Of a DNA stretch of 21,251 bases, positions 476 to 608 are shown one piece after another. The stretch's first letter is position 1. Every line of letters begins with the position of its first letter. The notes under the pieces are model-generated. The model saw nothing but the letters and a program-made list of their open reading frames with translations, was not told the origin of the DNA and did no database searches. This DNA is from Escherichia coli (lineage in GTDB: Bacteria; Pseudomonadota; Gammaproteobacteria; Enterobacterales; Enterobacteriaceae): the NCBI RefSeq assembly GCF_003334255.1, contig NZ_QOWU01000069.1; one strand, written 5' to 3'. The translations under genes were made by a program, and so were the position numbers.

Positions 476-608
476 CTTAACAGCGTTTACTGTTCTGTTG
501 CTCCCGAAACCCCATAATGGTGATTTTCTCCTGAGGAGTCTTACGTTTGCGGGCTTCTTGCCCTAACAGGATCCCGGTCATCTCAAAATTGGCGTTAGTG
601 TTAGACAT
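476..608 (-). pseudogene. IS3-family (IS2-like) transposase OrfA N-terminal remnant, about 43 codons
   Basis: Minus-strand ATG at 608; translation MSNTNANFEMTGILLGQEARKRKTPQEKITIMGFREQQNSKRC ends in a stop. The basic RKRKTPQEKI segment resembles the HTH N-terminus of IS2/IS3-family OrfA proteins. Too short to be functional; not in the supplied ORF track. Confidence 0.35.

What the first reader, a model, noticed from the sequence alone, without database searches (positions are those of the whole stretch)
476..608. IS remnant at the left flank suggests the biosynthetic island is bounded by mobile-element scars on both sides
A short OrfA-like transposase remnant on the minus strand lies left of the membrane-protein gene, and the IS10-like element plus IS66 remnant lie to the right. 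The membrane-protein gene and operon (1070-13166) are therefore bracketed by insertion-sequence debris, consistent with acquisition or mobilisation as a unit.
Basis: inference. Interest (0 to 1): 0.2.

Follow-up and report, generated by a model that had tools for sequence, protein, structure and literature searches.

The report
IS3 scar inside Tn3-family cargo transposon
The short "transposase remnant" is a real but dead fragment of an IS3-family insertion sequence; the biosynthetic operon beside it was not moved by flanking IS debris but lies inside a 22.6-kb Tn3-family transposon on an E. coli IncFII plasmid, and related plasmids still show the unoccupied insertion site.

Summary
The window is bases 9909-31159 of a 99.8-kb IncFII plasmid of E. 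coli G6/7, a Symbioflor 2 strain.

**Observation.** It holds, with corrected limits. Window 514-672 (minus strand) is the left end of an IS3-family, IS2-group element: the terminal repeat, the leader and orfA codons 1-31. It is 95-97% identical to intact copies. The last 12 codons of the 43-aa ORF (476-513) come from unrelated DNA, so the ORF is a dead chimera.

**Interpretation.** It is partly right. The block is acquired DNA, but the IS fragments are not its boundaries.
- They belong to different families (IS3, IS4, IS66).
- The IS4-family element at 13187-14480 is a simple later insertion with its own target duplication.
- The real mobile unit is plasmid 2002-24583 (22,582 bp). It starts 7.9 kb left of the window and ends at window 14675.
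- Identical 38-bp Tn3-family inverted repeats bound it, and a 5-bp GATAT duplication flanks it.
- It carries an intact tnpA and tnpR.
- Four related plasmids hold the uninterrupted site with a single GATAT.

**Cargo.** The 12-gene operon is 81% identical, and collinear, with a Pectobacterium brasiliense chromosomal locus.

**Verdict.** This is an ordinary mechanism with unusual cargo: low to moderate interest.

The parts
1..77 (-). Terminal 77 bp of an IS66-family element (ISEc43) that lies just left of the window. Its end reads GTAAGCGTAAAGCCAATGCC on the minus strand. It splits the transposon's small passenger ORF.
   Evidence: tnpA/tnpB/tnpC of ISEc43 at plasmid 7664-9900. L015 lacks this insertion and has the ORF intact, with an 8/9-bp overlap at the junction.
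78..161 (+). The 3' end (27 codons plus stop) of the 90-aa 'arylsulfatase regulator'-like passenger ORF of the basic Tn3-family transposon.
   Evidence: PGAP annotation. The ORF is intact in L008 8801-9073 and in L015 8821-9093.
169..206 (-). Degenerate internal right inverted repeat (IRR) of the basic transposon. It has the IRR-type inner part, but 5 substitutions and two 1-nt insertions within the first 32 positions. The next 5 bp (GCATA) do not match the GATAT target duplication.
   Evidence: Alignment with the IRL/IRR of two related 4.1-kb and 7.8-kb transposons; sequence.
262..513 (+). Fragment that begins with a different Tn3/Tn1000-type 38-bp inverted repeat (262-299, GGGGTTTGGGGAGCAGTGGAACCCAAAGGACGGTTAAG), followed by 214 bp of adjoining DNA. 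The homologous segment in other IncF plasmids continues into a relE/relB pair.
   Evidence: 87% identity to pFHI_NMBU_11_01 5001-5256 and about 82% to many pO157-like plasmids. Single copy in the first 31 kb of the plasmid.
514..672 (-). IS3-family (IS2-group, ISEc48-related) left-end fragment. It has the terminal repeat (ends at 672), a 64-nt leader and orfA codons 1-31 (608 down to 514). The rest of orfA, orfB and the right end are missing.
476..608 (-). The 43-codon ORF of the finding. It is a chimera: 31 IS3 orfA codons plus 12 codons and a stop read through into the neighbouring Tn3-type fragment.
680..830 (-). The 3' remnant of a group II intron. It has domains V-VI (Rfam match 691-767) and the last 13 codons of the intron-encoded protein's HNH motif (CHRQIHSRNAGSI). 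The intron's 3' end lies about 18 bp from the IS3 terminal repeat.
   Evidence: Rfam RF00029, 41.8 bits (gathering score 40), E=2.6e-5. 72% nt identity to the 3' end of an ltrA-carrying intron in pSTEC174; tblastn E=0.002.
831..1069 (+). Upstream region of the DUF6622 gene. Window 831-943 matches nothing else in PLSDB. Position 944 is where IS26 cuts this segment in pECOED-type plasmids.
1070..1573 (+). DUF6622 family membrane-protein gene (167 aa). In derived plasmids an IS1 sits at 1602/1603, with rightward deletions of differing extent that remove the operon.
   Evidence: A C-terminal remnant of a homologue lies upstream of the Brenneria operon.
1854..13166 (+). Cargo: a 12-gene operon. In order: SDR, ACP, FabZ/ApeP-like dehydratase, ketosynthase, a hypothetical protein, a PfkB-like protein, a FeeM-type N-acyl amino acid synthase, a hypothetical protein, an ABC ATPase, a MacB/FtsX permease, a LolA-like protein, a hypothetical protein, and a crotonase. 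It is collinear with a chromosomal locus of Pectobacterium brasiliense.
   Evidence: 81.3% nt identity over 11.3 kb to L022, and 74-77% to Brenneria.
13187..14480 (+). IS4-family element, ISEc60-like and frameshifted. It is flanked by a 9/10-bp direct repeat GGGTAGGCC(C) at 13177-13186 and 14481-14490, so it is a simple insertion into the hairpin GCGGGGTAGGCCCCGC downstream of the operon.
   Evidence: (I2).
14493..14608 (-). Internal fragment of an IS66-family transposase gene, with no ends. It matches profile positions 243-284 of 387.
   Evidence: D1; 96.7% to a Serratia grimesii plasmid IS66-family gene.
14609..14675 (-). Outer right end of the 22.6-kb transposon. It consists of a 29-bp remnant of a second copy's tnpA 3' end (3 mismatches to copy 1) plus a 38-bp inverted repeat (14638-14675) identical to the left repeat at plasmid 2002-2039.
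   Evidence: (I1: 67 nt, 96%).
14676..14680 (.). GATAT, the right copy of the 5-bp target-site duplication. The left copy is at plasmid 1997-2001, outside the window.
   Evidence: A single GATAT is present at the uninterrupted site in pUR5854.

Best explanation
The feature at 476-608 is a non-functional scar: the left terminal repeat, leader and first 31 codons of an IS3-family (IS2-group) orfA, cut off at 513/514 and fused to unrelated DNA. It is not a boundary of a mobile unit.

The scar sits inside a 22,582-bp compound Tn3-family transposon (plasmid 2002-24583). From left to right that transposon contains:
- IRL, an intact tnpA, tnpR, and a small passenger ORF (later split by ISEc43/ISEc45);
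- a degenerate internal IRR;
- a patchwork of junk: a foreign Tn3-type repeat fragment, the IS3 fragment and a group II intron 3' end;
- the DUF6622 gene and the 12-gene operon;
- a later ISEc60-like insertion and an IS66 fragment;
- a 29-bp tnpA 3' remnant plus a second, inverted IRL-type repeat.

Inferred mechanism. A basic transposon of about 4.1 kb and a second, inverted copy came to flank DNA that included the operon, whose closest relatives are in Pectobacteriaceae. TnpA then acted on the two outermost identical repeats and moved the whole segment, by the family's replicative pathway, into the repA-GNAT intergenic region of an IncFII-type plasmid, duplicating GATAT. Most of the second copy was lost to IS66-associated deletion, either before or after that move.

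Shown by the data: the repeats, the duplication, the empty site, the intact tnpA, the identities of the fragments, and the homology of the cargo. Inferred: the order of events, and that the element can still move.
For: IS3 fragment identity.

The transposon:
- A 67-nt inverted repeat lies at plasmid 2002-2068 / 24517-24583. Its terminal 38 bp are identical.
- GATAT lies immediately outside both ends. The chance of a 5-bp match at fixed positions is about 1/1024.
- The reconstructed empty site (left flank + one GATAT + right flank, 613 bp) is contiguous at 97-98% identity in four plasmids of E. coli, E. albertii and Salmonella. The junction alignment shows a single GATAT.
- tnpA is full-length (NF033527, 762 bits against a cutoff of 500, profile positions 1-954 of 954) and tnpR is an intact serine recombinase.
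- Related basic transposons have the same IRL and the order tnpA-tnpR-small ORF-IRR with their own 5-bp duplication: p623213_2, 4,116 bp, TGATC.
- The internal IRR carries indels, and its outer flank GCATA does not match GATAT.

The IS4-family element has its own target duplication.

The operon is collinear with P. brasiliense at 81%. It is absent from all other complete E. coli genomes and from the rest of PLSDB.
Against: - Only one insertion site of the 22.6-kb unit was found. All operon-bearing assemblies (G6/7, G8, L013, L017) share it, so repeated mobility is not shown.
- The right end is a 67-bp remnant rather than a canonical IRR. Its 29-bp tnpA part differs at 3 positions from copy 1, so how the second end arose is not resolved.
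- No res site was analysed.
- The donor context in which the two copies flanked the operon has not been found.
- A single 5-bp match could be chance. The precise empty site makes that unlikely.
Confidence: 0.85

Rival explanations
1. The IS remnant on the left and the IS10-like and IS66 pieces on the right are the relics of an IS-bounded composite transposon, or of IS-mediated capture, that moved 1-13.2 kb as a unit.
For: IS-derived sequence does lie on both sides of the DUF6622 gene plus operon. IS activity has clearly reshaped this region, as the IS1 and IS26 deletion variants show.
Against: The flanking pieces belong to three unrelated families. The IS3 piece has one end only, and that end faces the cargo side. 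The IS66 piece has no ends. The IS4-family element has its own 9/10-bp duplication, so it inserted by itself after the operon was in place. No matching target duplication brackets 673-13186. The empty site shows that the inserted unit is 22.6 kb, with Tn3-type ends.
Confidence: 0.05
2. There were two separate events. The basic transposon (to the internal IRR at window 206) and the cargo region arrived independently, and the outer GATAT pair and the lone right-hand repeat are coincidental or come from another element.
For: The basic transposon does have its own IRR at 169-206. The region between it and the operon is a patchwork of unrelated fragments, which implies several recombination events.
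Against: The 5 bp beyond the internal IRR (GCATA) do not match GATAT. The far-right repeat is identical to IRL over 38 of 38 bp. Related plasmids join the two outer flanks precisely, with one GATAT and nothing else between them. No plasmid with an intermediate state was found among 72,556.
Confidence: 0.08
3. The 43-aa ORF is a functional small gene, for example a domesticated truncated OrfA-like DNA-binding regulator, rather than a scar.
For: It has an ATG, and the native IS leader and terminal repeat lie upstream, where IS3-family promoters usually sit. Gene callers report it in several assemblies.
Against: It keeps only residues 1-31 of a roughly 130-aa OrfA, so most of the helix-turn-helix region and all of the leucine zipper are gone. 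The C-terminal 12 residues are read-through into unrelated DNA. It has no family match. It is found only in this one plasmid lineage, so conservation is uninformative.
Confidence: 0.03

Closest known systems
IS3-family, IS2-group insertion sequences (ISEc48 and an unnamed, closely related IS common on Klebsiella and E. coli plasmids)
   Same: The terminal repeat TGATGTAGCCCCCTGAAAC..., the leader and orfA codons 1-31 are 95-97% identical to intact copies and 82% identical to ISEc48.
   Different: Only 159 bp of an element of roughly 1.3 kb remain. There is no complete orfA, no orfB/DDE domain and no right end, so it cannot transpose or be transposed.
Tn1721/Tn1722-type nested Tn3-family transposons: a basic transposon plus a cargo segment closed by an extra terminal repeat attached to a truncated tnpA copy (from my own knowledge of the family, not tested here)
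   Same: There are three terminal repeats. A self-sufficient basic transposon (IRL-tnpA-tnpR-small ORF-IRR) sits at one end. The cargo is closed by a third repeat next to a tnpA 3' remnant. The whole element is flanked by a 5-bp duplication.
   Different: Here the extra repeat is an inverted tnpA-proximal (IRL-type) end, not a direct duplicate. The internal IRR is degenerate. The tnpA remnant is only 29 bp. The cargo is an 11-kb lipid-type biosynthesis and export operon, not a resistance gene.
Small relatives of the same transposon, e.g. in E. coli p623213_2 (4,116 bp, TSD TGATC) and K. pneumoniae p806883-10-2019a (GNAT/MFS cargo)
   Same: The same 38-bp IRL (0-1 mismatch), the tnpA-tnpR arrangement at 83-89% nt identity, and 5-bp duplications.
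   Different: They end at a canonical IRR within 4-8 kb, and they carry no biosynthetic operon.
Chromosomal FeeM-type operon of Pectobacterium brasiliense and Brenneria
   Same: The same 12 (or 11) genes in the same order, at 81% and 74-77% nt identity.
   Different: These are chromosomal and sit at different sites (carAB-folA; kdpDE-rnt). They have no Tn3-family ends. P. brasiliense has no DUF6622 gene.

Membership tests
IS3 family insertion sequence (intact member) | Terminal inverted repeats at both ends, beginning with TG | tested here: not met
   Only the left repeat is present (TGATGTAGCCCCC..., ending at window 672). Homology to intact copies stops at 514, and there is no right end.
IS3 family insertion sequence (intact member) | orfA (helix-turn-helix) and orfB (DDE) joined by a programmed frameshift | tested here: not met
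   Only orfA codons 1-31 of about 131 remain, and orfB is absent. The sequence is IS3-derived, but it is a remnant, not an element.
IS3 family insertion sequence (derived fragment) | Significant nucleotide and protein similarity to bona fide IS3-family elements in the correct register (repeat, then leader, then orfA start) | tested here: met
   159 bp at 96.9% (E=3e-72) and 95.0% to annotated intact or frameshifted IS3-family elements, and 82% to ISEc48.
Tn3 family transposon (the 22.6-kb unit) | A large DDE transposase, TnpA, of about 1000 aa | tested here: met
   1015 aa; NF033527, 762 bits (cutoff 500), full profile coverage. Pfam DUF4158 + DDE_Tnp_Tn3 on the identical gene in L015.
Tn3 family transposon (the 22.6-kb unit) | Terminal inverted repeats of about 38 bp beginning with GGGG | tested here: met
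   GGGGTTCTACGCCGGAACCGCCGAAATTTCCGTTACCC at plasmid 2002-2039 and, inverted, at window 14675-14638; 38 of 38 bp identical.
Tn3 family transposon (the 22.6-kb unit) | A 5-bp target-site duplication and an identifiable unoccupied target | tested here: met
   GATAT on both sides. pUR5854 and three other plasmids have the flanks joined with one GATAT.
Tn3 family transposon (the 22.6-kb unit) | A resolution system: a resolvase gene plus a res site | tested here: inconclusive
   An intact 191-aa serine recombinase gene lies divergent from tnpA. The res subsites in the 148-bp intergenic region were not analysed.
Tn3 family transposon (the 22.6-kb unit) | Demonstrated transposition: more than one insertion site, or an assay | tested here: not met
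   Every copy found sits at the same site. An assay is not possible with these tools.
IS-bounded composite transposon | Two copies of the same IS, each with functional ends, flanking the cargo and sharing one target duplication | tested here: not met
   The flanking pieces are an IS3 fragment on one side and an IS4-family element plus an IS66 fragment on the other. The IS4-family element has its own duplication.
Group II intron (the fragment at 680-830) | Catalytic domains V/VI plus an intron-encoded reverse transcriptase | tested here: inconclusive
   Domains V-VI reach the Rfam gathering score (41.8 against 40). Only the last 13 codons of the intron-encoded protein remain. It is a remnant, not an intron.

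The most novel reading that the evidence does not exclude
The 22.6-kb element may be a still-competent Tn3-family transposon, since it has an intact tnpA and tnpR and two perfect outer repeats. It would then have carried a complete, uncharacterised ACP-dependent N-acyl amino acid (FeeM-type) lipid biosynthesis and export operon from a plant-associated Pectobacteriaceae-like donor onto IncFII plasmids of human commensal and probiotic E. coli. In that case the operon makes an exported bioactive lipid in the gut.
Probability: 0.3. Interest if true: 0.55.

Novelty: new member of a known kind. Interest (0 to 1): 0.3.

Why it matters
The IS3 scar itself is routine plasmid debris. What this work adds is the correct unit of mobility. 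An 11-kb biosynthetic operon is otherwise seen only in the chromosomes of Pectobacterium and Brenneria and in a few metagenome contigs. In E. coli it is present in 2 of 5,426 complete genomes, as cargo of a Tn3-family transposon on a plasmid of two Symbioflor 2 probiotic strains (PMC4358396). This gives the exact boundaries for cloning or deleting the element and explains the patchy distribution of the operon. It also shows that most relatives of the plasmid lost the operon through IS1- and IS26-mediated deletions. Mechanistically nothing is new: Tn3-family elements with passenger genes and nested ends are well known (PMC7157771).

Tried and rejected
1. An NCBIfam scan of the 43-aa peptide found no hit. 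The peptide is too short for a profile; nucleotide comparison settled its identity instead.
2. I read 295-513 on the minus strand as the 3' end of a Tn3-family tnpA, because the hit tables listed 'Tn3 family transposase' under the match. All frames contain stops, and the annotated tnpA pseudogene only touches the match by one base. I rejected this reading: the segment is a terminal repeat plus non-coding DNA.
3. I tested the internal IRR (window 169-206) as the transposon's working right end. Its flank does not repeat GATAT, and the repeat itself carries indels. Rejected.
4. Intramolecular inversion cannot by itself explain the two inverted ends. It would leave different sequences outside the two outer ends, whereas a direct GATAT repeat is observed. 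This is reasoning from the Shapiro model.
5. A scan of genome contigs with peptide patterns from the FeeM protein confirmed no relative. Relatives were then found through the protein database.
6. A search of the literature for the terminal-repeat string found 0 papers. A search for the operon found no relevant paper.
7. I looked for a DUF6622 homologue in three distant metagenomic versions of the operon and found none.
8. I searched PLSDB for the IS66-fragment/repeat junction in other contexts. It occurs only in G6/7 and G8.

Full report
**Where the window comes from.** Megablast places the window at 100% identity on NZ_CP060062.1, bases 9909-31159. This is a 99,817-bp circular IncFII plasmid of E. 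coli G6/7. An identical plasmid exists in strain G8. Both strains are components of the probiotic Symbioflor 2 (PMC4358396). Window position equals plasmid position minus 9908. I fetched plasmid 1-31008 as L001, so that DNA to the left of the window could also be read.

**Checking the observation.** The minus strand of 476-608 is an open frame of 43 codons plus a stop, MSNTNANFEMTGILLGQEARKRKTPQEKITIMGFREQQNSKRC. A sensitive blastn of 440-760 against 5,426 complete E. coli genomes shows that window 514-672 matches annotated IS3-family elements.

- The closest copies are in pCUVET16-321.1 (96.9% over 159 bp, E=3e-72), in a Klebsiella variicola plasmid (95.0%), and ISEc48 (82%).
- The three-way alignment shows shared sequence starting at the terminal repeat TGATGTAGCCCCCTGAAAC (window 672). 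It runs through a 64-nt leader to the ATG at 608 and on through codon 31.
- At window 513/514 the window diverges completely from both intact elements. The intact orfA products continue ...KIAIIQQTMEPGM... for about 131 residues.

The IS-derived piece is 514-672, and the last 12 codons of the ORF are read-through into other DNA. The ORF keeps less than a quarter of OrfA and cannot be a working transposase component.

**What surrounds it on the left.** The left flank is a mosaic.

- Window 1-77 is the end of an IS66-family element (ISEc43) that occupies the plasmid just upstream. That element is itself interrupted by ISEc45.
- ISEc43 splits a 90-aa ORF annotated 'arylsulfatase regulator', whose last 27 codons are window 78-161. 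An otherwise identical contig (L015) lacks this IS complex and has the ORF intact.
- Window 169-206 is a degenerate Tn3-family right inverted repeat.
- Window 262-299 is a different, Tn3/Tn1000-like 38-bp repeat (GGGG...TTAAG). With the 214 bp that follow, it is 87% identical to a segment of pFHI_NMBU_11_01 that continues there into a relE/relB pair. This is the DNA that supplies codons 32-43 of the ORF.
- To the right of the IS3 repeat lie 18 bp and then, on the minus strand, the 3' end of a group II intron. Rfam RF00029 (domains V-VI) matches at 691-767 with 41.8 bits, E=2.6e-5. Preceding it are the last 13 codons of an HNH-type intron-encoded protein. The region is 72% identical in nucleotides to an ltrA intron in pSTEC174. 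Homology stops near 830.
- Window 831-943 matches nothing else in PLSDB.

**The right side.**

- The element at 13187-14480 is 85.4% identical over its whole length to ISEc60 (IS4 family). Its transposase matches NF033591 (E=4e-90) but is frameshifted.
- It is flanked by GGGTAGGCC(C) on both sides. It therefore inserted on its own into a GC-rich hairpin just after the last gene of the operon, and it deleted nothing.
- Window 14493-14608 is an internal piece of an IS66-family transposase gene (NF033517, profile positions 243-284 of 387; 96.7% to a Serratia grimesii plasmid).

**The actual mobile unit.** A repeat search over L001 found a 67-nt inverted repeat, 96% matched, between plasmid 2002-2068 and 24517-24583.

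- The first arm is the end of a Tn3-family transposon. GGGGTTCTACGCCGGAACCGCCGAAATTTCCGTTACCC is followed by the 3' end of a 1015-aa tnpA (NF033527, 762 bits, full length), and a serine-recombinase gene lies divergent from tnpA.
- The second arm (window 14609-14675) is the same 38 bp without a mismatch, inverted, plus 29 bp of tnpA 3' end with three mismatches.
- Immediately outside both ends the plus strand reads GATAT. This is the 5-bp duplication expected of the family.

I joined the 301 bp left of the element (ending in GATAT) to the 312 bp right of it and searched PLSDB. Four plasmids carry the joined sequence uninterrupted at 97-98% identity: E. coli pUR5854 and NZ_CP095531.1, E. albertii NZ_CP117563.1 and Salmonella NZ_CP102757.1. 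The junction alignment shows ...AAGCGATATGTTCC... with one GATAT. This is an empty site. Plasmid 2002-24583 (22,582 bp) entered as one piece.

**Why the outer end, and not the nearer one.** Related transposons share the same left repeat and module (83-89% nt identity). They end 4-8 kb away at a canonical right repeat and have their own duplication. One example is p623213_2, with the order IRL-tnpA-tnpR-90-aa ORF-IRR, 4,116 bp in length and TSD TGATC. G6/7 has the equivalent right repeat at window 169-206. It carries five substitutions and two single-base insertions, and its outer flank (GCATA) does not repeat GATAT. The far end is of the left-repeat type and still carries a stub of tnpA, so it derives from a second, inverted copy. 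The layout resembles nested Tn3-family transposons such as Tn1721/Tn1722; that comparison rests on my own knowledge and was not tested. The IS3 fragment, the foreign repeat fragment and the intron stub lie between the basic transposon and the cargo. They are best read as scars of the recombination events that assembled the intervening DNA, and the order of those events is inferred.

**The cargo, and whether it is one block.**

- Window 1854-13160 is collinear with a chromosomal locus of Pectobacterium brasiliense, between carAB and thrE/folA, at 81.3% nt identity. It is 74-77% identical to Brenneria, where the locus lies between kdpDE and rnt.
- Three metagenome contigs carry more distant versions with the same gene order.
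- The DUF6622 gene (1070-1573) is absent from P. brasiliense and from the distant versions. Brenneria keeps a C-terminal remnant at the corresponding place (45% identity over 51 residues, E=1e-5). The membrane-protein gene is therefore a variable neighbour, not a fixed part of the operon.

**Distribution in E. coli.**

- The operon is in 2 of 5,426 complete genomes and 2 of 72,556 PLSDB plasmids. It is also in two further assemblies (L013, L017), at the same site.
- The DUF6622 protein itself is indexed in 1,908 blocks of the assembly collection.
- In pECOED and similar plasmids only window 944-1602 survives, cut by IS26 on the left and IS1 on the right, and sequence resumes at window 17503.
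- L015 and L012 have the same IS1 position, but their deletions have different right-hand endpoints. This is the pattern expected of IS1-mediated adjacent deletions from a G6/7-like ancestor.

**Verdict.** The DNA is acquired and was inserted as a unit, but that unit is a Tn3-family compound transposon whose left end lies outside the window. The IS remnant is an internal scar, not a boundary. The mechanism is well known, and the cargo is unusual and uncharacterised. Only one insertion site is known, so current mobility remains unproven.

Noticed in passing
window 1970-13166: A 12-gene operon encoding, in order: SDR, ACP, FabZ/ApeP-like dehydratase, ketosynthase, a 312-aa hypothetical protein, a PfkB-like protein, a FeeM-type N-acyl amino acid synthase, a 220-aa hypothetical protein, an ABC ATPase, a MacB/FtsX permease, a LolA-like lipoprotein-sorting protein, a 399-aa hypothetical protein, and a crotonase. 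The gene order is conserved in Pectobacterium, Brenneria and three metagenome contigs. No description of it was found in the paper library. The product is unknown; it is presumably an exported N-acyl amino acid-type lipid.
   Followed up: partly
window 680-830 (minus strand): The 3' stub of a group II intron: domains V-VI reach the Rfam gathering score, and the last 13 codons of an HNH-type intron protein remain. It ends about 18 bp from the IS3-family terminal repeat.
   Followed up: yes
window 262-299, and L001 1949-1986: A lone Tn3/Tn1000-like 38-bp repeat lies inside the big transposon. A second IR-like sequence (GGGGAGCAGTAAACC... on the minus strand) lies only 15 bp from the GATAT target in the plasmid backbone. 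More than 1,000 E. coli records carry relatives of the first. What element they belonged to was not resolved.
   Followed up: partly
window 1602/1603; L007 (pECOED), L012, L015: In related plasmids an IS1 sits at a fixed position just after the DUF6622 gene, with rightward deletions ending at different points (window about 16961 or 17503). In many plasmids IS26 also cuts at window 944. These are nested IS1-mediated deletions that removed the operon.
   Followed up: yes
window 17486-17507 and 18945-18966: A perfect 22-nt palindrome, AACCGTACAATATTGTACGGTT, inside a 43-nt repeat, with an imperfect second copy 1.46 kb away. They bracket a truncated resolvase gene and the yacAB toxin-antitoxin pair. 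They may be resolvase (res-type) sites.
   Followed up: no
L011 6305-6569 (also L014, L018-L020): A pair of inverted Tn3-type repeats related to this transposon's ends (5-6 mismatches), only 265 bp apart, in the colicin E5 region. It looks like a miniature Tn3-derived element. The flanking 5 bp do not match each other.
   Followed up: no
L013 1-4104: In assembly GCA_949768945.1 the 3' half of the big transposon's tnpA is replaced by another Tn3-family element that carries a methyl-accepting chemotaxis-like gene (Tn1721-like). In that copy the transposase is disrupted.
   Followed up: no
window 19532-21251: A second, N-terminally truncated Tn3-family tnpA (454 aa, minus strand) is followed by the start of an IS3-family element at 20912. 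Other plasmids show that this is one tnpA split by an IS600-like insertion.
   Followed up: partly
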